IMG/VR virus record: IMGVR_UViG_3300032309_000911
Location: 22,519 to 86,518 of that record
From: a virus
Strand: one strand, 5' to 3'
Length of the DNA: 64,000 nt
The translations under genes were made by a program, and so were the position numbers. This document shows, one piece after another, positions 16,101 through 37,478 of the stretch; the stretch's first letter is position 1, and each line of letters begins with the position of its first letter. The notes under the pieces are model-generated. The model was given only the letters and a program-made list of their open reading frames with translations, was not told the DNA's origin and ran no database searches.

Positions 16101-19100
16101 CTGATACTACAGGCAAAACATATAAATTGAGAGATTGTTTAGATTTTAGACCGAGAGTTGATGACGCATCAACAATAACAAGTTCAGGACAAGATAGACA
16201 ATATAGCGGAACAGGAGCTTCAACTATAGATATAGTTCAATTTGGTTCTGATGTTAGTACCGATTTAGAATATTATTTGCCAAGAATAGATAAAGTATTT
16301 TTAGATAAAGATGGAAATTTAAAAATAGTAAAAGGTTCTAGTTCTTTAAATCCTCAAGTACCTAAAGGTCTTGAAAATGCTATGCACCTTTACACTATAT
16401 TTTTAAATGCTTATACTTTAAGTACTTCAGATTTAAAAATCAAAAAAATAGATAATAAACGATATACTATGAGAGATATTGGTGCTTTAGAAAAAAGAAT
16501 TTCTAATGTTGAATATTACACACAATTATCTTTATTGGAAGCAAATGCTCAATCATTACAAATACAAGATGCTGAAGGATTTGACAGATTCAAAAATGGA
16601 TTTATTGTAGATAATTTTACAGGTCATGGTATAGGAGATGTAGGAAATTTAGATTACAAATGTTCTATGGATATGGCAGGTGGATATGTAAGGCCTATGT
16701 TTAATTCTGAATCGGTACAATTAACAGAAGCTACTAACGAAGGAAATACTACAGTTACAAACACTAACAGATCATCAGCTAATTATCAAAAAACAGGAGA
16801 TTTAATTACTCTACCTTATACAGAAACAACTTTAATAAATCAACCTTATGCTAGCAAATATATTAATGTAAATCCTTTTAACGTATTTACATGGGCAGGT
16901 TCTGTTACACTTGATCCTCCAGGAGATGAATGGAAAGAAACTAACAGAGCGCCTGATTTAATAATAAATGAACAAGGCGGTTTCGATACTATGGTTTCTA
17001 ATCTAGGAAATCCTAATTTAGAAAGTGTTGAAATTGATACTGTATGGAATGAATGGCAAGATTTCTGGCAAGGAACTCCTTCAGAATCTACAGAACAAAC
17101 TAATTCATATATAGGAAGAGTTGGAGGAACAACTGTTAGATTTGGTGATTTTACAACTACTACAGCACAACAAATTTCTCAAACAAGAACAGGTATCAGA
17201 TCAGCTATAGTTCCTCAAGTTGTAAGAACATCTTTAGGAGATAAAATAGTTAATATTGCATTTATACCTTTTATTAGAAGTAGAACTATCAATTTTACAG
17301 CTACTAGATTAAAACCAAATACAAGATTGTATCCTTTCTTTGATAATATTTCTATTACGCCTTATGTTACGCCTACAGGTGGTTCATTAGGTGGAAATTT
17401 AGTAACGGATTCTAATGGTGCAGTATCAGGAACTTTTATCATACCTGATGCAACTGTAAATTCTAATCCTAGATGGAGAACAGGTCAAAGATTATTCAGA
17501 TTAACAAGTTCATCTACAAATTCTTCTTCAGATGTTGAAACTTCAGCTGAAGCAGATTATATAGCTAAAGGTTCTTTAGAAACAGTACAAAACACAATTG
17601 TGTCAACGAGAGAACCTCAATTAGTTAGACAAACTGTTAGCGATACTAGAAATATTACTAGAACATCTACAAGAACAACAACAGAAGTTATACAATGGAT
17701 TGATCCAATAGCTCAAACTTTCTTAGTTGATGATACAGGTGGTGTATTTGTAACATCTATTGAAACATATTTTCAATCAAAAGATTCTAATATTCCAGTT
17801 ACATTACAAATTAGAGAAGTTATAAATGGAACTCCATCAAGAACAATTGTTCCTTTTGGTGAGGTTGTATTAAATCCTAGTCAAGTAAGTATTAGTGATG
17901 ATGCTACGGTTTCTACTAAATTTAGTTTTCCTTCTCCTGTTTACTTACAAGAAAAAACTGAATATGCTTTTTGTCTATTAAGTAATTGTAATAACTATAA
18001 TGCTTTTGTTGCAAGATTAGGAGATACACAAATAGGATCAGATAGAACAATATCTCAAAACCCTTATGCAGGTGTTTTATTTAAATCTCAAAACGGTTCT
18101 ACTTGGACACCAGAACAGATGGAAGATATTAAATTTAAAATTAATAGAGCTGAATTTGAAAATGCAACTGGTACTGTTACTTTAGTAAATGATATTTTAC
18201 CTACAAGAACACTGCCTACTAATTCTTTAAGAACAACAAATAGTTCAGGTGTAATTAGAGTATTCCATAAAAATCACGGTATGCACGGCACATCAAACAA
18301 TGTTACTATTGCAGGAGTTGCTGCTGGCACTTATAATGGTATCACTCACACACAAATTAATGGAACATACACAAGTATTTCTAATGTAACTTTAGACAGT
18401 TATGATATTACAACGGTTGGAACTGCAACTGCTACAGGAGATATTGGCGGTTCAACAGTTACAGTTACTCAAAATAGATTATTTGATGTTGCTTGTTTAA
18501 ATTTATCAACATTAACAGTTCCAGGAACAACTATAAATTATACTATGAGAACAACTACTGGTAAATCAATACATGGTACAGAAACAGAATTCAATTTAGC
18601 TGCTGCTTCTGACTTTATAAATGTAAATACAGGAGACAACATTTACTTTACATCTCCTCAATTAGTTGCAAGTTCTATAAATGAAACAAATGAAATGGCA
18701 GGAAATAAATCTTTGTTTGTTAATCTAACTTTAACTACATCTAACACTAAACTTTCTCCTGTGTTAGATACTAAACGTATTAGTATGGTTGCTGTGCAAA
18801 ATAGATTAAATAATCCAACATCAGGAAATACACCAAATTATATTTCAGACACAGCTTCAACAGGAACATCATCAGCTGCCGTTTATTTAACACGATCTGT
18901 AGTTTTAGAAAATGCTTCTACATCATTAGACGTTAGACTAACTCAAAATGTTAGATCAAGTTCTTCTGTTAAAGTTTATTACAGAACAACAAGTGCTTCT
19001 GAAGTTAGAAATATAAATGATTTATCTTGGGTTCCATTTAATATAGATGGTGGTGAAGATATTTCTGTAACGCCTTCGGAAGATGATTTTACGTTTAAAG

Positions 19101-19228
19101 AATACAAATATTCAGTAACAGGAATTAAAGAATTTACAGCATTTCAAATTAAAATAGTTATGAAAGGGTCGATTTCTTCTTATCCTCCAATTATAAGAGA
19201 TTTAAGAGGAATCGCTTTAGCGGCTTAA
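13145..19228 (+). CDS. Large virion structural protein (DUF4815/VrlC-like, tail or baseplate)
   Basis: PYFDDY, QARELTQSQSILQNQIE, APGAHR, RFKNGFIVDNF, DPIAQTF and IRDLRGIALA; typical of the gene after gp8 in marine T4-like phages. Confidence 0.85.
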   Translation: MPSPTDFNLSPYFDDYNESKKFHRILYRPSFAVQARELTQSQSILQNQIERVSDHLFEKGTMVIPGEIGFDLNYYAVKLTSKTYSSISDYIGKQLTGVTSGVIGICVNAVANDGTDPDTLYVKYNKTGTNNTSVAFSNGETINATAIGSVTVLASAVVNSTATGSAANIAEGVYYINGFHVSVTEQTLILDKYTNTPSYRVGLTITESFITPNDDVSLVDNAQGSSNANAPGAHRFKIDLTLAKRTLTSTDDSNFVELLRLSNGIRLNQVTRTNYAVLEDNMARRTYDESGDYTVRDFDLDIREHIVDGNNRGIYTLAQGGNPAKLAIGVGPGKAYVKGYEIETIGTTFIDSDKARDYDSENNFNTRFDVENYVNVTNVYGTPDIGFVSSDVEAFKNVNLYDTATSSRGTEQSTTGVTVPQIGRAKSKGFELNSGTASSNIFASSSLTNAVYKHYLFDIEMFTHLNIKTAVDFTDGEKVTGGTSGAYGYVQSLDSTKSSAVTSISVANPGVVTLSSHSFKEGQQITLTGGSFSIDSVAYSSGTVFTVKNPTTNTFQLYNSAGTSTVNVTAYSSAPTAAHGVVVLNNVTGIFVAGETITGNTSSLTAVIQDNRYGFNGVQTFDFTSVKQIGMSGSPTYTSDVSTDSTYGDNYTLFGSLSVANSGTTVTGFGTLFSAELRVGDSITFTTDAGSSITRIIESISSNTSLQLLTAVGGSDVSTKTIAVRKRGKLQGSNKNISIFELPYSVIKTLKTTANGGITDTNFKVRRHFTTTLSSGSATITAGTNEIFSSLTEKDFSVSIMSIGSATAGAVGDVLSLSGNNHNGSAIFTLGGSPTGKTLTLNFGTNYSNAKIKILATVNRSVAGSKTKTLNANSTKQVSSQSEIESGIISLGKADIYVINNIYMSANFSTNATTSDTNVTARFILDNGQRDNFYDIGRIKLKTGAITPTGRLLIDFDYYSHGSGDYFDVDSYSGSSDYENITEYTSDTTGKTYKLRDCLDFRPRVDDASTITSSGQDRQYSGTGASTIDIVQFGSDVSTDLEYYLPRIDKVFLDKDGNLKIVKGSSSLNPQVPKGLENAMHLYTIFLNAYTLSTSDLKIKKIDNKRYTMRDIGALEKRISNVEYYTQLSLLEANAQSLQIQDAEGFDRFKNGFIVDNFTGHGIGDVGNLDYKCSMDMAGGYVRPMFNSESVQLTEATNEGNTTVTNTNRSSANYQKTGDLITLPYTETTLINQPYASKYINVNPFNVFTWAGSVTLDPPGDEWKETNRAPDLIINEQGGFDTMVSNLGNPNLESVEIDTVWNEWQDFWQGTPSESTEQTNSYIGRVGGTTVRFGDFTTTTAQQISQTRTGIRSAIVPQVVRTSLGDKIVNIAFIPFIRSRTINFTATRLKPNTRLYPFFDNISITPYVTPTGGSLGGNLVTDSNGAVSGTFIIPDATVNSNPRWRTGQRLFRLTSSSTNSSSDVETSAEADYIAKGSLETVQNTIVSTREPQLVRQTVSDTRNITRTSTRTTTEVIQWIDPIAQTFLVDDTGGVFVTSIETYFQSKDSNIPVTLQIREVINGTPSRTIVPFGEVVLNPSQVSISDDATVSTKFSFPSPVYLQEKTEYAFCLLSNCNNYNAFVARLGDTQIGSDRTISQNPYAGVLFKSQNGSTWTPEQMEDIKFKINRAEFENATGTVTLVNDILPTRTLPTNSLRTTNSSGVIRVFHKNHGMHGTSNNVTIAGVAAGTYNGITHTQINGTYTSISNVTLDSYDITTVGTATATGDIGGSTVTVTQNRLFDVACLNLSTLTVPGTTINYTMRTTTGKSIHGTETEFNLAAASDFINVNTGDNIYFTSPQLVASSINETNEMAGNKSLFVNLTLTTSNTKLSPVLDTKRISMVAVQNRLNNPTSGNTPNYISDTASTGTSSAAVYLTRSVVLENASTSLDVRLTQNVRSSSSVKVYYRTTSASEVRNINDLSWVPFNIDGGEDISVTPSEDDFTFKEYKYSVTGIKEFTAFQIKIVMKGSISSYPPIIRDLRGIALAA

Positions 19229-19451: not shown

Positions 19452-20813
19452 ATGGCTTATACTATAATAAACACCACTGATACACTAGAACAGATGCGAG
19501 TTAAGTTAAATAACTTGACTACTAATGATTTTGGTGATCCTTCAATTTTAGCTGGTGCAGGTATTACATCAACATCTATTACAGGTGCTGTCGTAGAATT
19601 AGCTAATGTTGCATATTCTCAAGCTGGTTTTCGTATTGAAGATTCTACTTCTTCTTTTCAACAAATTGGTGCTGGTCAAACTTTAAGAGTTTTAGGAACA
19701 TCAAATCAAATTAATGCTGTTGTAAGTGCTACAGATACTTTAACAATAAGTTTACCTAGTAACGTAACTATACCTAATAATTTAACAGCTAATGGTACAT
19801 TGCACACATTGGGTACAATAGAAATTAGTGGAAATAATATTAGATCAACAGATTCTACAACTGTTAGAATTAATGATTCTTTAAATGTAAACGGTAGTAT
19901 TTCAGCAACTTCTGTATCATCAACAGGCGCTGTTTCTGGTACAACTATAACAGGAACAGGTGCGGTTTCTGGTACAACTATTACAGGTTCTTCAACAATA
20001 CAAGGTACAGATTTAGTATTAACTTCAGGTGGAATAACTTTTGAAGGAGCAACCGATAACACATTTGAAACTACACTAGCGATTACAGATCCAACGCAAG
20101 ACAGAACAATTACAGTACCAAATATAACAGGTACTATTGTTACAACAGGAGATACAGGTACAGTTACTAGTACAATGATTGCTGATGGTACAATTGTAAA
20201 TGCGGATATTGCTGATGGAACAATTAGAGGTGCCAAATTAAATGTATCTTCAGATAGTGTAACTTTTGCTAACGTAACTGCTACTAATTTTACAGGAACA
20301 GCTTCAATAGCAACAACAGTTACTTTAAATGCGAATAATACGAATAATGAAACGGTTTATTTAACATTTTCAGATACCGCTACAGGTAATCAAACTTTAG
20401 AAACGGATACAAGTTTATCTTATAATCCTTCAACAAATATATTATCTACAACAGCTACTCAAGCACAATATGCCGATTTAGCTGAGATTTATGATACAGA
20501 TAAAAATTATGATATAGGTACAGTAGTTATGGTTGGCGGAAATAAAGAAGTTACAGAATGTTTTGTAGGTAAAAGAGCACTAGGTGTCATATCAGATAGA
20601 CCTGCTTTTTTAATGAACTCTAAAGCAAAAGGTCAACCAGTTGCATTAAAAGGACGTGTTAAAGTAAAAGTTACAGGCGATGTTAAAAAAGGCGATGAAT
20701 TAGTTGCAGGTAATGGTGGTTTTGCCACAACAATAAGTGAAGAATTTACAAAAGTATTTGCAATTGCTTTGGAAGATAATGATAAAGGACTTATCGAGGC
20801 AATTATACTATAA
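19452..20813 (+). CDS. Fibre/fibritin-like structural protein
   Basis: TDTLEQMRVKLN N-terminus, Thr/Gly-rich body, C-terminal YADLAE...GVIS...VALKGRV..KV.G.VKKGDELV module. Confidence 0.75.
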   Translation: MAYTIINTTDTLEQMRVKLNNLTTNDFGDPSILAGAGITSTSITGAVVELANVAYSQAGFRIEDSTSSFQQIGAGQTLRVLGTSNQINAVVSATDTLTISLPSNVTIPNNLTANGTLHTLGTIEISGNNIRSTDSTTVRINDSLNVNGSISATSVSSTGAVSGTTITGTGAVSGTTITGSSTIQGTDLVLTSGGITFEGATDNTFETTLAITDPTQDRTITVPNITGTIVTTGDTGTVTSTMIADGTIVNADIADGTIRGAKLNVSSDSVTFANVTATNFTGTASIATTVTLNANNTNNETVYLTFSDTATGNQTLETDTSLSYNPSTNILSTTATQAQYADLAEIYDTDKNYDIGTVVMVGGNKEVTECFVGKRALGVISDRPAFLMNSKAKGQPVALKGRVKVKVTGDVKKGDELVAGNGGFATTISEEFTKVFAIALEDNDKGLIEAIIL

Positions 20814-20837: not shown

Positions 20838-21284
20838 ATGATTGATGCTTTAAATGATGAATTAATATCTTTCACAAGATACGAAAATAATCAAATAATC
20901 TATATAGACAAAAACGGCAAAGATTACAAAGTTAAAGATGAAATAACTTATGGTAATTGGATTAAAAATTATAAAAATATTCCACATATAAAAGTTGAAG
21001 GATTAGAAGATAATAATTATCATCTTCAATTATTAAAACAATACAATTTGAATTTTAAAATGAAAAATGTGCACCTTTTTTATAATCAGTTTGGCGGGTT
21101 TTCTTTTCCTGAACATTCAGATGATATAGATGTATTATTGTGTGTTATTAAAGGTGGTAAAAAAGTATATACGGATAATTATCCTGTTTTGGTGAAAGAA
21201 GGACAAGCAATATCTATACCTAAAGGTGTCAAACATAGAGTTGAAAGTTTACCGTTTACTTGGGCATTAAGTATAGGATATTAA
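20838..21284 (+). CDS. Cupin/JmjC-like protein (probable Fe oxygenase)
   Basis: SFPEHSDDIDV (HxD), GGKKV, IPKGVKHRV and ALSIG, matching the cupin_4/ROX-like pattern. Confidence 0.75.
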   Translation: MIDALNDELISFTRYENNQIIYIDKNGKDYKVKDEITYGNWIKNYKNIPHIKVEGLEDNNYHLQLLKQYNLNFKMKNVHLFYNQFGGFSFPEHSDDIDVLLCVIKGGKKVYTDNYPVLVKEGQAISIPKGVKHRVESLPFTWALSIGY

Positions 21285-21300: not shown

Positions 21301-22338
21301 ATGAATTGGATGTTTTATATAAAGACAACTGAAACTTGTCAATTAAATTGCAAACATTGTTTCACTAGTGGTATTAATGGTAAAAAAATTTATTTTGATT
21401 ATTTTAAAACAATAGATTTTATAAAAAGATTCAGACAATATTTTGATAGTAACGAAGATTCTATTCATTTTGAATTTCATGGGGGTGAACCTTTTTTAGC
21501 ACCAGTATCTCACATGCAAAAAGTATATGATGAATGTAAAGATTTATGGAAAAATAGTACTTTTGGTATTACAACAAATTTAGTATTTAAATTAAAAGAA
21601 GAACACTATGAATTTATTAAGGGGCCTTTAAATAATCGTTTAGGTACAAGTTGGGATCCTAAAATAAGATTTGAAAATGATGCACAATATAATCTGTGGG
21701 AAAAAAACGTAAAAGATTTATTAAATAAAGGCGTTACAATAAAATTGTTTATCAGCGTAACTAAAGATACTATTAATATAGAACCTATTAAACTATTAAA
21801 ATGGATAAAACAATTAGGAGTACAAGAAATTTCTTTTGAAAGACTAACAGGTAATGGAAATGCAAAATTGCATCCTGAAATATTCCCTGATAACATAGAA
21901 CAGGATAAATGGTTTTTAAAAATGCACCATCAATCAAAAGAAAATAATTGTAGAAGTTGGTTTGATAATGAAACATTAGAAGTTATATACAGTAAGTTTG
22001 AAACAGGTTTTTTAAAAGGTGGTACTTTCTGTAGAGATTGTGAACAAAAGATTTTTACATTAAATGCTGATGGTACAATATCAGGTTGTCCAAATGCGGC
22101 GCCAGAGTTTCAATTTGGACACATAAATGACGATATTAAAAGTCTTATAAATAGTCCCAAAAGAATAGAAAACATCGCTTGTGAACGTGCAAGAAATCCT
22201 TTATGTTTTTCTTGTGAGGTTTTTGAGTTTTGTGGAGGTGATTGCCACCAACTTGCTTGGCAAGGTGATATATGTGGTGCACCAAAAAGTTTAATGAAAG
22301 AGTTAAAATTAGGTATAAAATATGGTAACATTAACTAA
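21301..22338 (+). CDS. Radical SAM/SPASM enzyme 1
   Basis: CQLNCKHC (CxxxCxxC), FHGGEP; C-terminal CRDC...GCP...CFSCEVFEFCGGDC...C. Confidence 0.93.
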   Translation: MNWMFYIKTTETCQLNCKHCFTSGINGKKIYFDYFKTIDFIKRFRQYFDSNEDSIHFEFHGGEPFLAPVSHMQKVYDECKDLWKNSTFGITTNLVFKLKEEHYEFIKGPLNNRLGTSWDPKIRFENDAQYNLWEKNVKDLLNKGVTIKLFISVTKDTINIEPIKLLKWIKQLGVQEISFERLTGNGNAKLHPEIFPDNIEQDKWFLKMHHQSKENNCRSWFDNETLEVIYSKFETGFLKGGTFCRDCEQKIFTLNADGTISGCPNAAPEFQFGHINDDIKSLINSPKRIENIACERARNPLCFSCEVFEFCGGDCHQLAWQGDICGAPKSLMKELKLGIKYGNIN

Positions 22339-22894
22339 TCCAGTTACGCCGCAAAATATAGTAGATAGATTTAAAGATTTGGTTACAGATGTAGCTAATA
22401 CAAGTATAATTTGGGGAACAGATAATAAACCATTTTCAGAAATGCCAGATGCTAATTACGCTGGTACAATATCAGGAACTACTATTAATGTTACTGGTTC
22501 TAATATTGCTATTACAGGAGATTTAATAACAGCTTCTACAATTAAATCTGTATTAGAAACAGAAACAGCTCTATATACAAATATTAGACAACAAAGAGCT
22601 ATACTAAATGTAACAGGTGGTGGAGGAAATACAGGATCGAGACCGACTCCAGGAATAATTTATGATCAAACAAATGTAGCTAATTTATCTGTAGATAATA
22701 GAGCATCGTTAGGATCCATTTCTAGTTCAAATGTAGATGCGGGACAAATAATAGACGATTTAAATTTAGAGACATATTTTGGAAATTTAGCAACGGCTTA
22801 TGATGCTGTTAGAACTACGGCCGTAACACAACAAATAGATGTATGTCATGCTAGTTGTCATAGTTCATGTCATGGATCAAGAGGAAGAAGATAA
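22322..22894 (+). CDS. Putative modification substrate: virion-like protein with C-terminal (CHxS)3 core
   Basis: T/N/G-rich body; all Cys and His residues lie in the C-terminal DVCHASCHSSCHGSRGRR; embedded among rSAM genes. Gene is secure, role is inferred. Confidence 0.7.
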   Translation: MVTLTNPVTPQNIVDRFKDLVTDVANTSIIWGTDNKPFSEMPDANYAGTISGTTINVTGSNIAITGDLITASTIKSVLETETALYTNIRQQRAILNVTGGGGNTGSRPTPGIIYDQTNVANLSVDNRASLGSISSSNVDAGQIIDDLNLETYFGNLATAYDAVRTTAVTQQIDVCHASCHSSCHGSRGRR

Positions 22895-23586
22895 TGAATA
22901 TAATTGAAACAATAGTTCCAATATCGATAGATAATTTAAAAAAACATTTTACGGACAAAGAAACATTTTATTTAATTGATTATAAAAATAGTGAATTGAA
23001 AGGTAAAAAATTATTAACATATTTAAGTAATTTAGACTTACCTTCCGATATCAAAGAGCCTGATTTGGAATTAATAAAAGAATATTTGCATAGCATTACT
23101 TTAGTTAATATTAATTCATTAGAAAACATTGTTATAGATATTCTTTTAGAATATAAAGGCATTTCTAAAACCAATAAGTATGAAACATTTATTAAAGAAA
23201 ATAAAGATATAATTTCTTTATGGTCTGATAAGTTAGACAGTTTAAGTGTATTCAACATGTATATTGTAAATTCTGATGAATTTAAACAATATGCCAATTC
23301 TTTTATAAAAGATGATACTGCAAGTTTAGAAGGTGTTAATTTTGTAAGTTTATTAAAACAAGAAAGATTTTATCTATTCTACAATAAACTAAATAGTAAT
23401 ATCAAATTCTATACTCATTATTTTAATGATTATATGTTTAGAGGTAAAAATCTTTATGAATTTTGGGCTACGTCCAAAAATCCTATGTTTTTATTAACTT
23501 GGGGAATAACACAAGGAAAAGGTAAAGATTATATAGAAGCTAAAATTAAAGATAAGGAAATTATAAAAAATGTTGCATTTATTTAA
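22894..23586 (+). CDS. Hypothetical protein of the rSAM operon
   Basis: TAATG coupling to the substrate-like gene supports a start at 22894 (MNIIETIVP). Confidence 0.8.
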   Translation: MNIIETIVPISIDNLKKHFTDKETFYLIDYKNSELKGKKLLTYLSNLDLPSDIKEPDLELIKEYLHSITLVNINSLENIVIDILLEYKGISKTNKYETFIKENKDIISLWSDKLDSLSVFNMYIVNSDEFKQYANSFIKDDTASLEGVNFVSLLKQERFYLFYNKLNSNIKFYTHYFNDYMFRGKNLYEFWATSKNPMFLLTWGITQGKGKDYIEAKIKDKEIIKNVAFI

Positions 23587-24655
23587 TAAAACATATTTAG
23601 AATTTGATGATAAAATAGAATTAAATTTTGATCGAGTAATTATTTCAGATGTAAATGGTGTAAATATATTGGATTCTTTAGATAAAGTTGTTCAAGGAAA
23701 ATTATTAAAATATGGTAAAAATTTAGACAATTTTAATTTTGTTAATTTAATAACTGAAATAAATTCTTATGGACAATCATCTAACAAAAAATTAGTAATA
23801 TATTGCGATAAGTTAAATTATATTAAATTCGCAACTAAATGGTTAAAAACAATATTGCCAAATTTAGATTTAAATAATTTTTCAAAATTAATAGAATTAA
23901 CAATTTATAAAGAAAGAATAATTAGTAATTCTCAAATGCAATCAGTAATACCTGTAAAACAAGATATTTTATGGGAAGGATTAGGAGATATATCATCTTC
24001 ATTTAATTCAATAACAGTTTCTAATGAAGATAGACAATCTATAAAAAATTTAAATTTAAAATATTCTTATGAATTTCTTTTAGCTGATCATTTTAGCGGG
24101 TCATCTAATTATACATCTTCACTTACAACAATAGTGCATTTATTTTTGCAAAGATGGTTTAAAGAGTTATTTAAAGATAATAGAGAAATGGTATTGTTAA
24201 ATCTTTTAAATAAAAATTTTCAAACAGCATTAAGTTTTACAGAAAGTAATATTGATTTAACTAAATCAAATCCTATAACTGGAGTTTCTTCTTTACAATT
24301 TTATTCTGATGAAAATATTTGGTCTAAAGAAAACTCATGTAAAGTTGAAGGATTAACACAAATACAAATAGATGGTTTACGAAATTTAGTTAAAAAAATT
24401 TACGGTGATGTGGAAGGCATGGAAATAGACAACGCTGTGTTTGGTATGCTTGATTATTTAGAATATGCAGCCAAAACTTCTATCACTACAGAAGAATTAA
24501 ATACTATATTAAATTATGTTGTAACAAATCCATTTGATACTTGTTTAATACCAAAATTTGATTTTCAAAATGTAAACTTTGTTTTTGTACAACACCTTTT
24601 AAATTTAAAGAGAGATAATAACACAGAGGTACTTACAAAGTTTAGATTATTATAG
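23570..24655 (+). CDS. Hypothetical protein of the rSAM operon
   Basis: 361-aa ORF, overlapping start, AAGGA Shine-Dalgarno; no family recognised. Confidence 0.8.
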   Translation: MLHLFNKTYLEFDDKIELNFDRVIISDVNGVNILDSLDKVVQGKLLKYGKNLDNFNFVNLITEINSYGQSSNKKLVIYCDKLNYIKFATKWLKTILPNLDLNNFSKLIELTIYKERIISNSQMQSVIPVKQDILWEGLGDISSSFNSITVSNEDRQSIKNLNLKYSYEFLLADHFSGSSNYTSSLTTIVHLFLQRWFKELFKDNREMVLLNLLNKNFQTALSFTESNIDLTKSNPITGVSSLQFYSDENIWSKENSCKVEGLTQIQIDGLRNLVKKIYGDVEGMEIDNAVFGMLDYLEYAAKTSITTEELNTILNYVVTNPFDTCLIPKFDFQNVNFVFVQHLLNLKRDNNTEVLTKFRLL

Positions 24656-24662: not shown

Positions 24663-25709
24663 ATGCGTGAATTTTTGATTGATCCTAAAAGAGATCCTGA
24701 ACAGGAATATACAATTCATTTATTTGAATTTTGTAATTTAAGTTGTGCTTTCTGTTGGCAAAATCATCAAGATAAAATAGGCATAGACACGGTTCTTGAT
24801 AAATTAGAACCTATTGAAAGATTTGTTAGTAAAGAATATAAAAATAAGATTACTCTTAATTTGATGGGTGGCGAAGTATTTGCGCCTAGTATTTATACTA
24901 AACAATTAAATGAAGCCTATAAACAATTATCTTTAGGCATTCAAAAAATTGCAGACAAATATAACAAACAATGTTCTTTAAATTGGGTGTCAAATTTAGT
25001 TACTGATAAGTTAGATTTGATTGAAGATTTATTACAATACTCCAAAGACAATCATATTAAAGCACGTTTAACAACATCATACGATCCTCGTGGCCGTTTT
25101 AATCCAAAACAATTCGAAGTGTTTAAAAAAAATGTAGATTATTTTAAAGATAGAGTAACGTGTTTTTCTTGTTTATTAACTAAACCAAATATAGAATATT
25201 ATTTAACTGAGGGTGATGAATATTTTGATTATCTTTATAACAATGGTAAATATATTTACTTTGATTATTATATGCCTGATGAACACGCTAAATTTAATAT
25301 GCCAAGTGATGAATTACTTTTAAAATTCTTTAAACATTGTGTTGACAAATATCCTAATGTGCATCCTGTAAAAGATTGGATTTTTAATAAAAAAAATTAC
25401 GCTTCATGTAGAGTTAGTAAATTGGTATTAGCTGATGGAACTTTATGTATGTGTGGCAACTTGGTACAAGACAAAAAATCATTAAGTATGTACAAATCGC
25501 CTATTAAACGTATGAACAATAATGAAATTGAAAACAAATTTTTAGAAAAATATAATTGTGCTTCTTGTGAGTTTTTGGATAGGTGTACATTAGGATGTTT
25601 TATGAATCACGATTACAAATATAAGGAGGAGCTGAATGAGTGTGTCTATAAACTTACGCACAGATATATCGAAGATGTACGAGTACAACGAGGATACATC
25701 GCTTATTAA
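24663..25709 (+). CDS. Radical SAM/SPASM enzyme 2
   Basis: CNLSCAFC, MGGE; C-terminal SC...LCMC...CASCEFLDRCTLGC...C. Confidence 0.92.
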   Translation: MREFLIDPKRDPEQEYTIHLFEFCNLSCAFCWQNHQDKIGIDTVLDKLEPIERFVSKEYKNKITLNLMGGEVFAPSIYTKQLNEAYKQLSLGIQKIADKYNKQCSLNWVSNLVTDKLDLIEDLLQYSKDNHIKARLTTSYDPRGRFNPKQFEVFKKNVDYFKDRVTCFSCLLTKPNIEYYLTEGDEYFDYLYNNGKYIYFDYYMPDEHAKFNMPSDELLLKFFKHCVDKYPNVHPVKDWIFNKKNYASCRVSKLVLADGTLCMCGNLVQDKKSLSMYKSPIKRMNNNEIENKFLEKYNCASCEFLDRCTLGCFMNHDYKYKEELNECVYKLTHRYIEDVRVQRGYIAY

Positions 25710-26208
25710 TATCAAATTACCTAAAAATATTGATGTTAAATTGGATAATCTTCCTGTAAAACAACCATATATTCCTAGAATATGTGGTAGACAAGCTCAC
25801 ATGTTTATTTGGTGGGGAACTAAAGAAACCGACCCGGACATTTATGAACAAACTTTAAAAAATAAAAATGAAGAACAATGGATAACTTGTGATGAAATTT
25901 GGAAATTAGAAAAAGGTATTTCCTCAATTCATATATATGACACTGAAATTATTGTAGGATGTGTTAAATATTCTGGTGTTTTGAAAAAAAAAACTATACA
26001 TGAAAGAAAAAAATTTATTAGACAAATGTGGAATGATATAGTAAGTATGTTTAAAGATAAAAAAATTATTGTTCCTGTAGGTTCATATTTAGAATATATA
26101 AGTTTGTCAATAAATTTAACAAAAATACAACACGAACCTTATCAAAAAAGATTTTTAAATCCATTAGGTTTTAAAAAACAAGGAAATTATTGGATAAGAT
26201 GGACCTAA
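25675..26208 (+). CDS. Hypothetical protein of the rSAM operon
   Basis: Overlaps both neighbours; start uncertain (25636 or 25675). Confidence 0.7.
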   Translation: MYEYNEDTSLINIKLPKNIDVKLDNLPVKQPYIPRICGRQAHMFIWWGTKETDPDIYEQTLKNKNEEQWITCDEIWKLEKGISSIHIYDTEIIVGCVKYSGVLKKKTIHERKKFIRQMWNDIVSMFKDKKIIVPVGSYLEYISLSINLTKIQHEPYQKRFLNPLGFKKQGNYWIRWT

Positions 26209-27290
26209 TAATTAAACCAACAGAATTGTGTAATTTTAAATGTACTTTTTGTTCTAGCACTAAAATAGCGGAACACAAAAAAGATGTATTATCGCTTGAA
26301 CAAATATTTACATTTTTAAAAAGATTTCCTCAAACAAGAACAATTATAGTTAATGGAGGCGATCCTTTAATGATGGAACCAGAATACTATTGGAAAATTA
26401 TTGAATGGTTGGATAAAAACGATTACGATACATCTATTGCATTAACTACAAATTTATGGCCATTCTATAAAAAACCAGACAAATGGGTTAATTTATTTAA
26501 CAATGAAAGAGTTGGTGTAACTACATCTTTTCAATATGGAGGTGGCCGTCTTAAAGGAGATTTAACAGAATTTACAGAAGAAGATTTTTGGAAATGTTCA
26601 AATGCTATGTTAGAATATTGTGGTTATAGGCCAGATTTTATATCTGTTATTGTTCCTGAAAACGAAAAAGATGCAATTAAAAATGTAGAACTTGCAAAAC
26701 GTATGAGTGAAGATATTGTACCTGATGGAACAATGCACAATTTTACACGTCATAGTAAGACTGGTGTGGAATGTAAATTAAATTATGCAATGTCTAGTGG
26801 CGATCAAGGTAAACCTTATTTGTTAAGTAAGATATATCAGATATACGTAGAAATATGGAAACGTGGTCTTGCACCTTGGGAATTTAATACAAAACAAATG
26901 ATACAAAGATTAAACAATGATAGAACATCTTGTCCTCAAAATCGCAAATGCGATACTGGAATACGTGCATTAAATCCTAGCGGAGATTATTATTCTTGTG
27001 GTGCTTTTGGTGATGATAAAGACAAAACCATAGATTTTGATAGAGAAATGAAAGGAGAGTTTTTTACTCCTTTACAAGATGATTTAAATTTGCTTAGTAT
27101 GAAGAAATCTTGTTTTACTTGTCCTATGTTTAATATATGTAATGGTTGCAGAAAAACAATTAAGGATTTTAAACATCACGGAGTTGTAGAAGAACATTGC
27201 AAACTTATGAAAACCATAGCACCGGACATAATTAAATCTAATGGACTAAATATTGAAGTAACACCTTATATAGATGAAAGTGTATTATGA
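26199..27290 (+). CDS. Radical SAM/SPASM enzyme 3
   Basis: LIIKPTELCNFKCTFC, NGGDP; C-terminal SCPQNRKC...YSC...CFTCPMFNICNGC...HC. Confidence 0.93.
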   Translation: MDLIIKPTELCNFKCTFCSSTKIAEHKKDVLSLEQIFTFLKRFPQTRTIIVNGGDPLMMEPEYYWKIIEWLDKNDYDTSIALTTNLWPFYKKPDKWVNLFNNERVGVTTSFQYGGGRLKGDLTEFTEEDFWKCSNAMLEYCGYRPDFISVIVPENEKDAIKNVELAKRMSEDIVPDGTMHNFTRHSKTGVECKLNYAMSSGDQGKPYLLSKIYQIYVEIWKRGLAPWEFNTKQMIQRLNNDRTSCPQNRKCDTGIRALNPSGDYYSCGAFGDDKDKTIDFDREMKGEFFTPLQDDLNLLSMKKSCFTCPMFNICNGCRKTIKDFKHHGVVEEHCKLMKTIAPDIIKSNGLNIEVTPYIDESVL

Positions 27291-27808
27291 TTAATGATTT
27301 TTTAACAAAAGGTTTTATTATATTAAATGATAAAGATCCTTTTAAATTTATAGATATCAATGATATACAATGGACTGATGCCGGTCATGTAGGTTTGCAA
27401 GTAGTTATTAAAGAAGAAAAAATACAAAATGAACTATTAACAACTCAAAAATATCTAGGTGAGAAATACGTAAAACAAATAGATTCGAATTACAAACTTG
27501 CTAATAAAATAGATTTAGTAAATGGCATGGATGAGGCTACTTTGGTTTGGCATAACGATTTAATAGAAGGACCAAATCTTTGCATTTTAACTTATTTTGA
27601 TGATATGGATGTTGATATTGGAGGTGCTATTTGTTTTAGAAAAACAGAAACAAAAGAAGATTTAATAAAACATTACCCTAAAAAAAATGATATTCTTATT
27701 ATGAATCAAAGTTTAAAATATGAACATATAGTTACACCTCTGAAATTAAAACTTCCTAGACGAGTGGCCAGTTTTAATTATTATATAGATGAAAGGTTGA
27801 CAAAATGA
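27287..27808 (+). CDS. 2OG-Fe(II) oxygenase
   Basis: WHND (HxD), GGAICF, YEHIV and RRVASF. Confidence 0.8.
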   Translation: MINDFLTKGFIILNDKDPFKFIDINDIQWTDAGHVGLQVVIKEEKIQNELLTTQKYLGEKYVKQIDSNYKLANKIDLVNGMDEATLVWHNDLIEGPNLCILTYFDDMDVDIGGAICFRKTETKEDLIKHYPKKNDILIMNQSLKYEHIVTPLKLKLPRRVASFNYYIDERLTK

Positions 27809-28383
27809 AAGAAGGATTTAATAATTTGTGGCCTACTATCATATTAAAAGATATTATAAAAGATAAACCATTATTAGATGATGTAACAAATTATACATTA
27901 ACAAAATATGGGTTAGATAATAAGATATCAGCAGATATTAAATATCAAAATCTATTTGATGATAATTATTATAACAAGTTTAGATACAACATAGTAATAC
28001 CTTTTTTTGAAAAATATTTGCAAGAAAATGTAGGTATTAGTTTGAAAGATAAAAAATATACTATGAGAGCATGGTTAACGGGTTATGGTGTTTCTTATTC
28101 TATGCCAAAACACAATCATTCAGGTTCTCATTTGAGTGCGGTATTTTATTTACTATCCGAAGATAATCATCTAGGAGGATCTTTAGTAATAAATGACCCT
28201 CGTTTTAATGCAAATAGAGGTTATACGCCTGATTTTAAAAAATGGTTTGAAAAAGAAATGTTTAATCCAAAAACAGGAGATATTTTAATATTTCCAAGTT
28301 TTACTTATCATAGTGTTGACACTTATTATGGAAAATTAAGATTAGCTATGCCTGTTGATCTAATATTATATAATGATGAATAA
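27805..28383 (+). CDS. 2OG-Fe(II) oxygenase, phage HxH type
   Basis: AW..., HNHSGSHLSAVFYL, DPR, PKTGDILIFPSFTYHSV and R. Confidence 0.85.
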   Translation: MKEGFNNLWPTIILKDIIKDKPLLDDVTNYTLTKYGLDNKISADIKYQNLFDDNYYNKFRYNIVIPFFEKYLQENVGISLKDKKYTMRAWLTGYGVSYSMPKHNHSGSHLSAVFYLLSEDNHLGGSLVINDPRFNANRGYTPDFKKWFEKEMFNPKTGDILIFPSFTYHSVDTYYGKLRLAMPVDLILYNDE

Positions 28384-29302
28384 TATAACAGTATCTATAA
28401 ATCCAAGTTATTTTTGTAATTTTAGATGTAATTTTTGTTATCTCGCAACTGAACAATTAGGTGATCAAAAAAAAATATCATTATCAATACTAGATAAAAG
28501 ATTAAAAGAAATTAGTAAAGTTAGAAATATAGAATGGGTTGATCTATATGGTGGAGAAATAGGCGCATTAAAAAAGGATTATTTTTATGGATTAAAAGAT
28601 GTAGTAAGAAAATATTACAAAGATAAAATTAATATAATAACCAATTATTCTATGTTACACGAAGGATTTTTTAAAGACGATTTTTATTTAAGTGTAAGTT
28701 ATGATTTCGAAGCAAGAGAAAAATCCGATTTAGTTTATAATAATATGTTTCAGAGTACGGTGCCTATTGCAGTATTAATACTTGCAAGTCAAAAGGTAAT
28801 AGAAATGAACGTAGATGATATGATAAACAAATTAAATCTTTGTTCTAGTATAGAAAGCGTGGAAATTAAACCATATTCAATAAATCAAGCAAATGAACAA
28901 TATGTTACACATAAAGATTTTGAATTGTTTGTGCAAAAATGGATTGAAAGTCCTGTAATAAAAAAATTTGATTTTATAAATGAAGGAAAAATAATTCAAA
29001 GTTTAAATAAAGAATACAACGCATTTTCAAACAATCATGTTTATATAACTCCTAATGGAAATTTTGCTGTATTAGAATTTGATAAAAATGATAAAGAGTA
29101 TTTTTTAGAATTAAGTTCTATTAAAGAATATATAAAATGGGCAGAACAAGAACCAATAAAAAATATTTCAGATATATGTAGAAAATGTAAATATTACGGT
29201 CATTGTTTAACTGAACATTATCGTTATGTAAAAGATTTAAATAACAGTTGTAATGGATATAAAGGATTATTAGAATATTATGGAAAAAGAATGGAAAATT
29301 AG
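28373..29302 (+). CDS. Radical SAM enzyme 4 with reduced SPASM-like tail
   Basis: CNFRCNFC, YGGE; C-terminal CRKCKYYGHCLTEH...C. Confidence 0.9.
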   Translation: MMNNITVSINPSYFCNFRCNFCYLATEQLGDQKKISLSILDKRLKEISKVRNIEWVDLYGGEIGALKKDYFYGLKDVVRKYYKDKINIITNYSMLHEGFFKDDFYLSVSYDFEAREKSDLVYNNMFQSTVPIAVLILASQKVIEMNVDDMINKLNLCSSIESVEIKPYSINQANEQYVTHKDFELFVQKWIESPVIKKFDFINEGKIIQSLNKEYNAFSNNHVYITPNGNFAVLEFDKNDKEYFLELSSIKEYIKWAEQEPIKNISDICRKCKYYGHCLTEHYRYVKDLNNSCNGYKGLLEYYGKRMEN

Positions 29303-29675
29303 ACAAGCATTATATCACAAATTAAATAGTGATTATACTGACGATCTAAAAAAGATAAAAATAGAAATAAGTAGCGATATTGTTGAAAATTGTATAAGAT
29401 ATTTTTATAATACCGATATGCCTTTTATATACCCGTCAAAAAGTTATGTGGTGGCCATTTGTTATGCCTATTGGTTATCAAAAGACTTTGGTGAAGATTT
29501 TTATGAATTGTTAAACGATAAAGATTTGTTATATGGAAACGACCCATATTTTAAAACATATGAAGAAGATACTAAAACGTATGATGAAATATTAAAAAAG
29601 GTTATGCCTCTTGATGAAAATAAAGGTATAGTGCCAGACATAAAGAATTATTATATGGCTGAATTTTTTATATAA
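29280..29675 (+). CDS. Hypothetical protein, last gene of the rSAM operon
   Basis: Overlaps rSAM4; YPSKSYVVAICYAYWL. Confidence 0.75.
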   Translation: MEKEWKIRQALYHKLNSDYTDDLKKIKIEISSDIVENCIRYFYNTDMPFIYPSKSYVVAICYAYWLSKDFGEDFYELLNDKDLLYGNDPYFKTYEEDTKTYDEILKKVMPLDENKGIVPDIKNYYMAEFFI

Positions 29676-29923: not shown

Positions 29924-30271
29924 ATGGCAGGTATAGCAAACTTATCAATAGACGCCGGCGCTACATTTACAAGTGATGTATTAGTACAGAATGATGATGG
30001 TACTGCTTTTAATTTAACAGGTTATACAGCTCAAGGTAAAATGTCTCAAGGATATTCTGCCACATATCAAAGAGTATATTTTGATATTACTATCTATCAA
30101 GCTGATGGAATAGTAACAATAGGTTTAGATCCTGCAACAACTGCTCAGTTAGAGGATGGCCGTTGGGTTTATGATGTAGAAATAACTAATGTAGCCGATA
30201 GTACAGTAACACGTGTTGTTGAAGGTATTATTACAGTTTATCCAGGTGTAGTTTCTACTTACAATCCTTAA
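29924..30271 (+). CDS. Small virion adaptor-like beta protein
   Basis: ANLSIDAGATF, FNLTGYT, GRWVYDVE and TRVVEGIITVYPGV, a common phage family beside fibre genes. Confidence 0.75.
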   Translation: MAGIANLSIDAGATFTSDVLVQNDDGTAFNLTGYTAQGKMSQGYSATYQRVYFDITIYQADGIVTIGLDPATTAQLEDGRWVYDVEITNVADSTVTRVVEGIITVYPGVVSTYNP

Positions 30272-33623: not shown

Positions 33624-33640
33624 TTAAATAAAGTTAAAAT

Positions 33641-33652
33641 TATTTATAAATA
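33641..33652. promoter_or_regulatory. Palindromic bidirectional late promoter TATTTATAAATA
   Basis: TATAAATA on + (33645-33652) and on - (33648-33641), between divergent GT and fibre genes. Confidence 0.75.
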
Positions 33653-33694
33653 TACAGTAACATAATTTAATTAAAATGTCAATAAAATAAAAGT

Positions 33695-37477: not shown

Positions 37478-37478
37478 A

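What the first reader, a model, noticed from the sequence alone, without database searches (positions are those of the whole stretch)
22844..22894. (CHxS)3 core motif CHAS-CHSS-CHGS-RGRR on a virion-like carrier
Seen: every Cys and His of the 190-aa protein lies in the last 16 residues, in exact period-4 register, followed by RGRR. The body is T/N/G-rich, with two similar segments (TGDLITASTIKSVL and AGQIIDDLNLETYF). Established: His-Xaa-Ser repeats are targets of bacterial HxsB/HxsC-type rSAM systems, and Cys-x3 repeats mark CXXX-repeat and ranthipeptide precursors. Inference: this motif merges both patterns, so different rSAMs could install His-to-Ser cyclophanes and Cys thioethers. The ~174-aa body would act as a giant leader or a virion display scaffold. 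Alternatively the tail is simply a metal or Fe-S binding site.
Basis: partly seen in the sequence, partly recalled or inferred. Interest (0 to 1): 0.9.

Follow-up and report, generated by a model that had tools for sequence, protein, structure and literature searches.

The report
Radical-SAM-linked Cys-His tail on phage protein
A small protein of this marine T4-like phage ends in a nearly invariant 16-residue Cys-His-x-Ser x3 + RGRR tail that always travels with the same set of radical SAM enzymes, in phages and in predatory bacteria, so the tail is most likely modified chemically, in a way that I found described in no paper.

Summary
The motif is real. ORF 22322-22894 (+) is 190 aa, and its only Cys and His (residues 175, 176, 179, 180, 183, 184) form CHAS-CHSS-CHGS followed by RGRR and the stop.

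It is far from chance. 136 of the 150 most diverged family representatives end CHxx-CHxx-CHxx-RxRR. Four cultured jumbo phages, whose protein bodies barely resemble this one, carry the same tail.

A SPASM radical SAM gene lies directly upstream in 77 of 77 eligible IMG/VR loci. An orphan gene lies directly downstream in 73 of 73. In the reverse test, seeded from the radical SAM gene, 72 of 72 eligible loci have a tail gene downstream.

The same gene set, reshuffled, sits in chromosomes of Bdellovibrio-like predators beside S74-type fibre genes. In this window it lies in the host-recognition cluster.

Best reading (0.6): the tail is a protein-borne core modified by the cassette's radical SAM and Fe(II) enzymes. 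The chemistry (thioether or His-Ser cyclophane) is untested. Virion location is only hinted at.

The closest known systems are the bacterial HXS system (HxsA/B/C/D) and CrpA/CrpC. It meets the membership criteria of neither.

Earlier notes of this scan report the same cassette on at least eight other genomes.

The parts
22844..22894 (+). The tail: codons for C-H-A-S C-H-S-S C-H-G-S R-G-R-R plus stop TAA. Proposed modified core.
   Evidence: Conserved in 136 of 150 representatives and in 4 of 4 cultured jumbo-phage lineages checked.
22322..22894 (+). 190-aa tail-bearing protein: a compact alpha/beta body of a fold with no solved relative, then a 16-residue tail.
   Evidence: AF2 pLDDT 87.8, pTM 0.80; mean pLDDT of the last 10 residues is 52. 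No PDB match by Foldseek or VIA-align (best Z 4.0). BFVD matches include Atu_ph07 gp170. No Pfam or NCBIfam family. The tail alone matches the end of phrog_35144.
21301..22338 (+). rSAM1, a radical SAM/SPASM enzyme. Its stop overlaps the start of the tail gene.
   Evidence: CxxxCxxC at residues 13-20 and a full Cys set for two auxiliary clusters. SPASM model TIGR04085 scores 34.5 bits against a cut-off of 27. phrog_1802. Directly upstream of the tail gene in 77 of 77 loci.
20838..21284 (+). Cupin / JmjC-like protein, first gene of the cassette.
   Evidence: Cupin_2 and JmjC_2 hits below their cut-offs. Present upstream in 39 of 57 loci by tblastn. Present in RSF1, pPa_SNUABM_DT01 and the predator island.
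22894..23586 (+). Orphan protein 'unk239' (230 aa from the ATG that overlaps the tail gene's stop; an upstream ATG at 22867 is also open).
   Evidence: phrog_20767. Directly downstream in 73 of 73 loci. AF2 pLDDT 87.3. No solved relative; best Z 4.6 over 53 aligned residues.
23570..24655 (+). Orphan protein 'unk361'.
   Evidence: No family. Present in 50 of 54 loci.
24663..25709 (+). rSAM2, a radical SAM enzyme with a SPASM-like end.
   Evidence: Present in 54 of 54 loci.
25636..26208 (+). Orphan protein 'unk190', a variable member.
   Evidence: No family. Present in 19 of 54 loci.
26190..27290 (+). rSAM3, a radical SAM enzyme with a SPASM-like end.
   Evidence: Present in 52 of 54 loci.
27287..27808 (+). 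2OG-Fe(II) oxygenase-like protein.
   Evidence: 2OG-FeII_Oxy_3 at 24 bits, below the cut-off of 27. Present in 34 of 54 loci.
27805..28383 (+). 2OG-Fe(II) oxygenase.
   Evidence: 2OG-FeII_Oxy_5 at 43.1 bits against a cut-off of 27. Present in 48 of 54 loci.
28373..29302 (+). rSAM4, a radical SAM enzyme.
   Evidence: Present in 54 of 54 loci.
29280..29675 (+). Orphan protein 'unk131', last gene of the cassette.
   Evidence: No family. Present in 52 of 54 loci. Also present in the predator islands.
19452..20813 (+). Fibre-like protein with a C-terminal intramolecular-chaperone (Peptidase_G2/S74-type) region, directly before the cassette.
   Evidence: Present upstream in 52 of 57 loci. S74 fibre-like genes also lie beside the predator cassettes. 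A giant fibre gene directly precedes tandem tail genes in L101.
22146..22153 (+). TATAAATA (T4-type late-promoter consensus, recalled), 176 nt before the tail gene and inside rSAM1.
   Evidence: A TATAAATA lies within 300 nt upstream of the tail gene in 74 of 78 loci, against 0 in the preceding 300 nt. In many loci it coincides with codons for L-I-N-S-P or with the rSAM1 stop, so promoter function is inferred only.

Best explanation
The 190-aa protein is the substrate of a conserved phage and predator cassette that modifies proteins after translation. Its folded body carries a 16-residue C-terminal core, (Cys-His-x-Ser)x3-Arg-x-Arg-Arg. The cassette's SPASM radical SAM enzymes (four here) would abstract hydrogen atoms in this core and install intramolecular cross-links. 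The candidates are Cys thioethers and/or His-to-Ser(C-beta) cyclophanes. The cupin and 2OG-Fe(II) oxygenases may add hydroxylations. The matured protein then serves the host-recognition or cell-attack apparatus encoded around it (VrlC-like protein, fibres with self-cleaving chaperone domains).

Shown: the motif, its conservation, the two-way gene linkage, its presence in phages and in Bdellovibrio-like bacteria, and the SPASM cluster motifs.

Inferred: that the tail is the substrate, which bonds form, and where the product acts.
For: 1. The tail is nearly invariant while the bodies diverge. 136 of 150 representatives end CHxxCHxxCHxxRxRR. RSF1 ORF071, Atu_ph07 gp170, pPa_SNUABM_DT01 PA10_00065 and Phosso CDS 289 end the same way. 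tblastn with this protein finds none of them at E <= 0.001. The fourth position of each unit is Ser or Asn in 135, 131 and 130 of 136 tails, which a plain metal site does not require.

2. Linkage. rSAM1 is directly upstream in 77 of 77 loci and unk239 directly downstream in 73 of 73. rSAM2 is present in 54 of 54, rSAM4 in 54 of 54 and rSAM3 in 52 of 54. Seeded from rSAM1 instead, 71 of 72 eligible loci have a tail ORF within 1.4 kb, and the last has it behind one extra rSAM gene. 29 of those 80 loci are on contigs not in the first set.

3. A tail-only DNA pattern scan of 185,579 species genomes gave 47 loci. 39 are real, and 27 of those are labelled Bdellovibrionota. In most of them, cassette genes (rSAM1-4, unk239, unk131, oxygenase, cupin) lie within the 8-kb loci. 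In the four Bdellovibrionota genomes extended to 36 kb, almost the full set is present in different order and strand. One island is flanked by housekeeping genes on both sides. A gene set that persists through rearrangement is a strong sign of a shared function.

4. rSAM1 has CxxxCxxC plus a complete SPASM Cys set, the class that modifies peptides and proteins. Its best full-length solved relative is the anaerobic sulfatase maturase.

5. Precedents. HxsA, a protein with HxS repeats, is matured by the rSAM enzymes HxsB and HxsC, with a +8 Da change on an SHRSS motif (PMC13128918, abstract and section 9 read). CrpC installs thioethers on the protein CrpA (PMC13692751, abstract read).

6. One variant has Phe in place of the second His, and two keep three H-x-S/N units but only two Cys. 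This fits an aromatic-x-Ser cross-link motif better than a metal ligand set.
Against: No modification has been observed; everything rests on gene context.

None of the four rSAMs reaches the cut-off of any named maturase family. No RRE-type recognition domain was seen.

Three Cys plus three His are classic metal or Fe-S ligands, so an unmodified binding site explains the invariance of Cys and His equally well.

Four rSAMs for three identical units is more enzymes than repeat-processing maturases usually need, so some of them may act on other proteins, such as the fibres.

It does not say which part.
Confidence: 0.6

Rival explanations
1. The tail is an unmodified metal or iron-sulfur binding site. 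It could be a structural metal site of a particle protein, or an Fe-S or iron carrier that feeds the roughly twelve clusters of the four neighbouring rSAM enzymes.
For: Cys and His are invariant and spaced i/i+4, which places them on one face of the short helix modelled at residues 177-184. Linkage to Fe-S enzymes would also be expected for a cluster donor. An ApbC/NUBPL-type Fe-S carrier gene lies about 3 kb from the cassette in one predator genome. Marine T4-like genomes with many rSAM genes also carry Fe-S assembly genes (PMC5332604, passage read). Metal sites in phage fibres are well known (recalled).
Against: The Ser/Asn position of each unit is almost as conserved as Cys and His, and so is RxRR. 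A ligand set does not need either. One variant has Phe for His, and others lose a Cys but keep H-x-S/N. The protein matches no Fe-S scaffold family. The gene sits next to one particular rSAM in 77 of 77 loci, the usual substrate position.
Confidence: 0.2
2. The body is only a very long leader. After modification the roughly 16-residue core is cut off and released as a small peptide, a classical RiPP such as a toxin, signal or metallophore.
For: The core lies at the extreme C-terminus and is preceded by a conserved hydrophobic residue. The cassette has four orphan proteins of unknown function that could include a protease.
Against: The body is a conserved, confidently folded domain of about 170 aa, shared as a fold with Atu_ph07 gp170. 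No protease or exporter family was found in the cassette. The first Cys ends a strand of the fold. The cassette lies in the host-recognition cluster.
Confidence: 0.1
3. The rSAM enzymes act on other proteins, such as the fibres. The tail-bearing protein is an adaptor or assembly factor whose tail only docks onto them.
For: There are more rSAM enzymes than one short core seems to need. Fibre genes with chaperone domains lie beside the cassette in phages and predators.
Against: In L101 the tail genes are followed directly by yet another, different rSAM gene. The tail is the only invariant Cys-bearing element seen in the cassette.
Confidence: 0.1

Closest known systems
HXS antiphage system (HxsA effector, rSAM enzymes HxsB and HxsC, HxsD; Li et al., Nat Commun 2026, PMC13128918; abstract and section 9 read)
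   Same: A whole protein, not a short peptide, carries tandem His-x-Ser units rich in basic residues. It is encoded beside more than one radical SAM enzyme and a small accessory protein. The modification maps to an S-H-R-S-S unit, and its His and both Ser are needed.
   Different: Here each His is preceded by an invariant Cys. There are almost always three units, at the extreme C-terminus, followed by RxRR. There is no signal peptide or peptidoglycan-binding domain. The rSAMs score 44 bits against 370 for HxsB and 32.5 against 267.9 for HxsC. No HxsD-like hit was found. The system is carried by phages and predatory bacteria in host-recognition or fibre loci, not by prey as a defence.
CrpA/CrpC of Methanococcus voltae (PMC13692751; abstract read)
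   Same: A SPASM radical SAM enzyme with three [4Fe-4S] clusters modifies a Cys-rich protein substrate encoded next to it.
   Different: According to the paper's section headings, CrpC has a predicted RRE; none was seen here. CrpA is Cys-rich throughout, whereas here there are only three Cys, in one tail. No sequence comparison was made.
Ranthipeptide and sactipeptide maturases (PapB, CteB/SCIFF) and the CXXX-repeat system
   Same: Cys at a period of four in a core next to a SPASM rSAM. PapB is the best NCBIfam hit of rSAM1, and CteB (5WGG) is among the solved relatives.
   Different: Scores are far below the cut-offs (55.4 against 340 for PapB; 33.8 against 350 for the CXXX-repeat maturase). 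The acceptor residues known to me for these systems (Asp, Thr; recalled) are absent from the tail. The carrier is a folded protein.
Three-residue cyclophane (triceptide) maturases: XyeB, GrrM/OscB, FxsB, YhhB
   Same: An aromatic-x-(Ser/Asn) unit repeated near a C-terminus. The weak NCBIfam hits of rSAM1 and rSAM3 include YhhB, FxsB, XyeB and GrrM.
   Different: All hits are far below their cut-offs. Those precursors are short peptides (recalled). The invariant Cys has no counterpart there.
Anaerobic sulfatase-maturating enzyme (anSME, PDB 4K37)
   Same: A minimal rSAM/SPASM enzyme without an RRE that acts on a Cys or Ser of a folded protein. It is the best full-length solved relative of rSAM1 (residues 11-317 against 12-332, E 9e-8).
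   Different: The anSME target motif C/S-x-P/A-x-R (recalled) is not met. In the last unit, C-H-x-S-R, the third position is Gly, Ser or Asn.

Membership tests
HXS system (HxsA/B/C/D) | Effector protein with tandem His-x-Ser repeats | tested here: met
   The tail contains H-A-S, H-S-S and H-G-S. H-x-S/N is kept in 130 to 135 of 136 tails at each unit.
HXS system (HxsA/B/C/D) | rSAM enzymes that are HxsB and HxsC equivalogs | tested here: not met
   rSAM1 against HxsB (TIGR03978): 44.2 bits, cut-off 370, N-terminal part only. rSAM3 against HxsC (TIGR03977): 32.5 bits, cut-off 267.9.
HXS system (HxsA/B/C/D) | HxsD accessory protein, and an HxsA-type export signal and peptidoglycan-binding domain | tested here: not met
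   No NCBIfam or Pfam hit for the tail protein or for unk239, unk361, unk190 or unk131. No hydrophobic N-terminus is visible in phage or predator homologues. I assume, but did not verify, that the library holds HxsA and HxsD models.
Radical SAM / SPASM superfamily (the enzymes) | CxxxCxxC SAM-cluster motif plus the Cys set for two auxiliary clusters | tested here: met
   In the 41-row alignment, rSAM1 has C13 and C17 in at least 90% of rows and C20 invariant. C247, C263, C302, C305, C311, C315 and C325 are invariant. TIGR04085 scores 34.5 bits against a cut-off of 27. rSAM2 (20.1) and rSAM3 (24.7) fall below that cut-off.
Ranthipeptide / sactipeptide systems (PapB, CteB) | Maturase reaches the family cut-off | tested here: not met
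   PapB model: 55.4 bits against 340. CcpM: 24.7 against 500.
Ranthipeptide / sactipeptide systems (PapB, CteB) | Thioether bonds from Cys sulfur to a carbon of an acceptor residue | not testable with these tools
   Needs mass spectrometry and NMR of the matured protein.
CXXX-repeat peptide system | Maturase equivalog TIGR04115 and a variable-number Cys-x3 repeat precursor | tested here: not met
   33.8 bits against a cut-off of 350. The copy number is 3 in 142 of 150 representatives, 2 in 3 and 4 in 1. No family hit for the precursor.
Triceptide (three-residue cyclophane) systems XyeB/GrrM/FxsB/YhhB | Aromatic-x-x core motif | tested here: met
   His-x-Ser/Asn occurs three times. One variant has Phe in place of the second His.
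Triceptide (three-residue cyclophane) systems XyeB/GrrM/FxsB/YhhB | Maturase reaches the family cut-off | tested here: not met
   YhhB 32.4 against 445. FxsB 21.7 against 370. XyeB 29.5 against 450. GrrM 22.1 against 310.
Anaerobic sulfatase maturase and its formylglycine target | Target motif C/S-x-P/A-x-R (recalled) and enzyme equivalog | tested here: not met
   In the last unit, C-H-x-S-R, the third position is Gly 64, Ser 41 and Asn 14 of 136. The enzyme scores 46.5 bits against a cut-off of 349.
Virion structural protein | Detected in purified particles | tested here: inconclusive
   The Atu_ph07 paper (PMC6102473, section 29 read) says most virion proteins map to clusters including 'CDS 170-215'. 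That lower bound equals the RefSeq tag of the tail protein, gp170. The list itself is in Supplementary Table S5, which was closed, and I did not check whether the two numbering schemes agree.

The most novel reading that the evidence does not exclude
Tailed phages and Bdellovibrio-like predators share one ancient chemical kit for attacking Gram-negative cells. Four or more radical SAM enzymes and iron oxygenases would turn the (Cys-His-x-Ser)x3-RxRR end of a small folded protein into a triply cross-linked, basic, possibly metal-holding knot. Its three units would match the three-fold symmetry of the S74-type fibres encoded beside it, so the protein would cap or arm the fibre tip. It would be the offensive mirror image of the prey's HXS defence, whose rSAM-matured HxS repeats block DNA entry in the periplasm. 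This would be a new class of radical-SAM-made modification in a structural or cell-entry protein.
Probability: 0.2. Interest if true: 0.9.

Novelty: new variant of a known kind. Interest (0 to 1): 0.78.

Why it matters
Radical SAM maturation is known mostly for small secreted peptides. Only two of the papers I read cover whole proteins (HxsA and CrpA, both 2026).

Here the same logic appears in hundreds of phage lineages. There are 579 clusters at 50% identity, including abundant marine T4-like phages (pelagimyophage-like by weak DNA matches) and cultured jumbo phages of Ralstonia, Burkholderia, Agrobacterium, Sinorhizobium and Pseudomonas. It also appears in the chromosomes of predatory bacteria, always next to host-recognition or fibre genes.

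If the tail is modified, this is a new post-translational chemistry on a C-H-x-S unit that no characterised maturase family covers. It would be made by four distinct SPASM enzymes and at least four proteins with no assigned family; the two I modelled (the tail protein and unk239) have no solved structural relative.

It is directly testable, because cultured phages (RSF1, RSL2, Atu_ph07, pPa_SNUABM_DT01) carry the cassette.

It may also explain why oxygen-sensitive Fe-S enzymes are kept in phages of aerobic ocean bacteria.

Tried and rejected
Co-fold: rSAM1 (alignment A3), the tail protein (alignment A1), three 4Fe-4S clusters and SAM. The result was 'no answer' (scores 0.00 and 0.03, mark 0.32). 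This is no evidence either way.

Fold searches of the body: Foldseek against the PDB gave nothing at E <= 0.001. VIA-align wide gave a best Z of 4.0.

Fold searches of unk239: nothing by Foldseek. The best Z was 4.6, rmsd 2.7 A, over 53 aligned residues. A profile search against PDB sequences gave nothing meaningful.

ESM Atlas: no usable hit for the tail protein. For unk239 there was only a weak lead to the LIC12162 family, at a score of 0.82, which is in the chance range.

tblastn of the tail protein against the phage collection at E <= 0.001 found nothing. The relatives in cultured phages were reached through rSAM1 and unk239 instead.

All 110 in-frame runs of five or more CHxx units were simple-repeat artefacts, and none ended RxRR-stop.

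Late-promoter idea: TATAAATA is no more frequent in the window than in shuffles (21 against a mean of 20.45). The conserved copy before the tail gene coincides with conserved rSAM1 codons in many loci, so I do not count it as shown.

Internal duplication of the body: rejected.

Prophage origin of the predator copy: rejected for one genome, where housekeeping genes flank the island and none of the ORFs scanned matched a phage capsid or terminase family.

Literature searches that found no description of this tail or cassette. Papers on FLC6, S13, RP12/RP31 and pelagimyophages only list the rSAM, cupin and oxygenase genes (passages read in PMC8066314, PMC11898562, PMC5468394, PMC7029224). The Bdellovibrio fibre paper PMC10769870 has no occurrence of the word 'radical' in its main text.

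Supplementary tables that may list the tail protein among virion proteins were closed (Atu_ph07 Table S5; RP31 Table S3).
Full report
WHAT IS THERE. The window is bases 22519-86518 of an 86.5-kb IMG/VR virus record. It is AT-rich and T4-like. ORF 11667-13136 matches T4 gp8, and the 2027-aa ORF 13145-19228 carries DUF4815. I take the latter to be the 'VrlC' of pelagimyophage papers, a name I recall. The only nucleotide matches in the phage collection are weak ones to Pelagibacter phages and to Agrobacterium phage Atu_ph07.

ORF 22322-22894 (+) encodes 190 aa ending VCHASCHSSCHGSRGRR. Bases 22844-22894 are its last 16 codons plus the stop. Its three Cys and three His are residues 175, 176, 179, 180, 183 and 184, and there are no others. 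So the core observation holds.

They share 2 of 14 residues, and the best alignment between the two halves of the body scores below the shuffle mean (26 against 28.9; 359 of 500 shuffles reach it).

CONSERVATION. The word-indexed search found 799 relatives at E <= 0.01. Of the 120 listed, all but a few truncated or read-through sequences end in the motif.

A profile of 59 of them (A1) was run against 1.84 billion cluster representatives. It gave 579 hits at E <= 0.001 and 90 at E <= 1e-30. Among the best 150, 136 end strictly CHxx-CHxx-CHxx-RxRR. In these 136:
- the fourth position of the three units is Ser/Asn in 126/9, 107/24 and 122/8;
- the residue before the first Cys is Val or Ile in 122;
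- the penultimate block is R-(G 96 / S 22)-R-R.

The copy number is three in 142 of 150, two in 3 and four in 1. Two predator homologues have four.

Informative variants: two representatives keep three H-x-S/N units but only two Cys; one has Phe for the second His; one has Pro for the first His.

At the DNA level, 109 distinct tails use both Ser codon families and all synonymous codons of Cys, His and Arg.

THE BODY. AlphaFold2 on A1 gives a compact alpha/beta domain (pLDDT 87.8, pTM 0.80). The first Cys ends the last strand, and the tail is a low-confidence short helix. No solved structure resembles it.

Among predicted viral structures it matches uncharacterised phage proteins, including Atu_ph07 gp170 (probability 1.0, TM 0.53) and three paralogues of 504-660 aa in one myovirus. 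One relative (P0153, 453 aa) has a Gly-rich N-terminal extension.

So the body is a real, conserved domain. It is not a fibre and not a mere linker.

NEIGHBOURHOOD IN PHAGES. The gene order here is:
- fibre-like protein with a chaperone-type C-terminus (19452-20813);
- cupin;
- rSAM1;
- tail protein;
- unk239;
- unk361;
- rSAM2;
- unk190;
- rSAM3;
- two 2OG-Fe(II) oxygenase-like proteins;
- rSAM4;
- unk131.

In 80 IMG/VR loci found through the tail protein, I counted only loci with enough flanking DNA:
- rSAM1 directly upstream: 77 of 77;
- unk239 directly downstream: 73 of 73;
- rSAM2: 54 of 54;
- rSAM4: 54 of 54;
- rSAM3: 52 of 54;
- unk131: 52 of 54;
- unk361: 50 of 54;
- the second oxygenase: 48 of 54;
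- the fibre-like gene upstream: 52 of 57.

These loci are related to each other, so the counts are not independent events.

The reverse test was seeded from rSAM1 (385 relatives; best 80 kept; 29 on contigs not in the first set). It gave a tail-bearing ORF within 1.4 kb downstream in 71 of 72 eligible loci. In the 72nd the ORF lies behind one additional inserted rSAM gene.

Fifteen records of cultured jumbo phages hold rSAM1 and unk239 homologues. In all four lineages that I opened, the gene after the rSAM ends in the tail:
- RSF1 ORF071, 186 aa;
- Atu_ph07 gp170, 296 aa;
- pPa_SNUABM_DT01 PA10_00065, 178 aa;
- Phosso CDS 289, 306 aa.

NEIGHBOURHOOD IN CELLS. A DNA pattern for the tail alone was scanned over one genome for each of 185,579 species. 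It gave 47 loci:
- 8 are CHCH-type simple repeats;
- 39 encode proper tail-bearing ORFs;
- 27 of the 39 are labelled Bdellovibrionota, several on contigs of 1.3 to 2.8 Mb.

The rest are mostly short or phage-like contigs in metagenome bins. Some share the phage gene order (L092, L093, L130).

Cassette genes lie beside most of them. In the four Bdellovibrionota genomes that I extended to 36 kb, rSAM1, rSAM3, rSAM4, unk239, unk131 and in most an oxygenase are all present, but in different order and on both strands.

In one of them the island is bounded by an ETF subunit and serine dehydratase on one side and by an ApbC/NUBPL-type ATPase, a lytic transglycosylase and YchF on the other. None of the ORFs scanned matched a phage capsid or terminase family. 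The island includes a 413-aa protein with a Peptidase_S74 chaperone domain. S74-type homologues lie within about 1 to 12 kb in the other three.

In a tree of rSAM1, 12 of the 14 cellular rows form one well-supported group (99/95), apart from all 27 phage rows. The phage/cell label needs only one change (unrooted, so no direction of transfer can be read). The cassette is therefore a long-standing resident of these predators, not recent phage contamination.

In one metagenome bin, a fibre gene of more than 2000 aa with a chaperone end is followed at once by two tandem tail proteins of 137 and 134 aa. These are followed by a different rSAM gene.

WHAT IT MOST LIKELY DOES. The tail is invariant while the carrier body diverges. 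The gene is bound in both directions to one SPASM rSAM and to a fixed set of others. The gene set survives rearrangement across phages and bacteria. This is the signature of an enzyme-substrate system.

rSAM1 has the SAM-cluster motif and a full SPASM Cys complement. Its closest solved full-length relative is the anaerobic sulfatase maturase, an enzyme that works on a folded protein without a recognition domain.

I therefore read the tail as a protein-borne core that the rSAM enzymes cross-link and the Fe(II) enzymes may hydroxylate. Which bonds form is open:
- Cys at a period of four suggests thioethers;
- His-x-Ser/Asn suggests three-residue cyclophanes, or the still undefined +8 Da chemistry of HxsA;
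- the variants that keep H-x-S/N but lose a Cys, and the Phe-for-His variant, lean slightly towards the aromatic-x-Ser unit being essential.

The position of the cassette points to a role in the attack apparatus. It lies in the host-recognition cluster, and the pelagimyophage literature also places rSAM cassettes there (PMC7029224, passage read). It also lies beside fibres with self-cleaving chaperone domains in phages and in predators. That role is inference.

Presence of the protein in particles is only hinted at. The Atu_ph07 paper gives 'CDS 170-215' as a virion-protein cluster (PMC6102473, section 29 read), and gp170 is the tail protein. The table itself was closed, and I did not verify the numbering.

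RIVALS. A plain metal or Fe-S site remains possible (0.2). Release of a small peptide (0.1) or action of the enzymes on other proteins (0.1) cannot be excluded. The co-fold gave no verdict and is not used.

COMPARISON WITH WHAT IS KNOWN. The closest described system is the bacterial HXS defence (PMC13128918). It is a protein effector with HxS repeats, matured by two rSAM enzymes and a small partner. The present system shares that logic but fails the membership tests:
- the enzymes are far below the HxsB and HxsC cut-offs;
- there is no HxsD-like hit;
- there is no export signal or peptidoglycan-binding domain;
- it has an added invariant Cys and a C-terminal RxRR.

CrpA/CrpC (PMC13692751) is a second precedent for protein-sized substrates. 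No named maturase family (PapB, CcpM, CXXX-repeat, XyeB, GrrM, FxsB, YhhB, DarE, DynA, anSME) is reached.

My seven literature searches found no paper describing this tail or cassette. Phage genome papers only list the genes.

Earlier notes of this scan describe the same cassette on at least eight other genomes, with similar conclusions. One note says that part of the claim fell in a later check, without saying which part. I took the HXS paper and the idea of a virion location from those notes as leads, and I checked the first myself.

VERDICT. The radical SAM link is strongly supported by context. The chemistry and the site of action are untested. I class it as a new variant of a known kind: a radical-SAM-matured protein with His-x-Ser units. 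Interest is high, because the cassette is widespread, unstudied and testable in cultured phages.

Noticed in passing
L136:7765-9006 (-), genome G001 (Halobacteriovoraceae MAG, 1.29-Mb contig): The 413-aa S74-chaperone protein beside the predator cassette starts with a type IV pilin-like N-terminus (a Gly followed by a long hydrophobic helix; read by eye). So it may be a pilin-anchored fibre rather than a MAT-type adhesin.
   Followed up: no
L101:1-7999 (also L111, L128; metagenome bin 'Rhodobacteraceae Water_Bin34'): A fibre gene of more than 2000 aa with a chaperone end is followed directly by two tandem short tail proteins (137 and 134 aa) and then a different CxxxCxxC enzyme. The three rSAM1 homologues of that bin lie on other contigs and have no tail gene after them.
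   Followed up: partly
L205 (IMG/VR 3300032323_000879): An extra 337-aa radical SAM gene is inserted between rSAM1 and the tail gene. The number of rSAM genes in the cassette varies between lineages.
   Followed up: no
P0153 (453 aa, metagenome protein): A tail-protein domain fused behind a 270-residue Gly-rich region. BFVD also lists three paralogues of 504-660 aa in one myovirus with the same fold.
   Followed up: no
window 22146-22153 and the matching sites in L002-L081: TATAAATA is kept inside rSAM1, over the codons for a conserved Leu/Val-Ile-Asn-Ser-Pro, or overlaps the rSAM1 stop. It occurs in 74 of 78 loci, against 0 in the neighbouring 300 nt. This may be an internal late promoter for the tail gene, or a coding coincidence.
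   Followed up: partly
L137:3647-4801 (-), genome G001: An ApbC/NUBPL-type Fe-S cluster carrier ATPase lies about 3 kb beyond the predator cassette. It may be ordinary housekeeping, or a supplier of clusters.
   Followed up: no
L136:9370-10908 (-) and L143:4078-5547 (+): A 512-aa protein without a family hit is conserved at the edge of the predator cassette in two genomes (39% identity). Its N-terminal half looks glycosyltransferase-like by eye (a DxD-type motif).
   Followed up: no
window 30268-48837: Many further long ORFs follow the cassette. I did not examine it.
   Followed up: no
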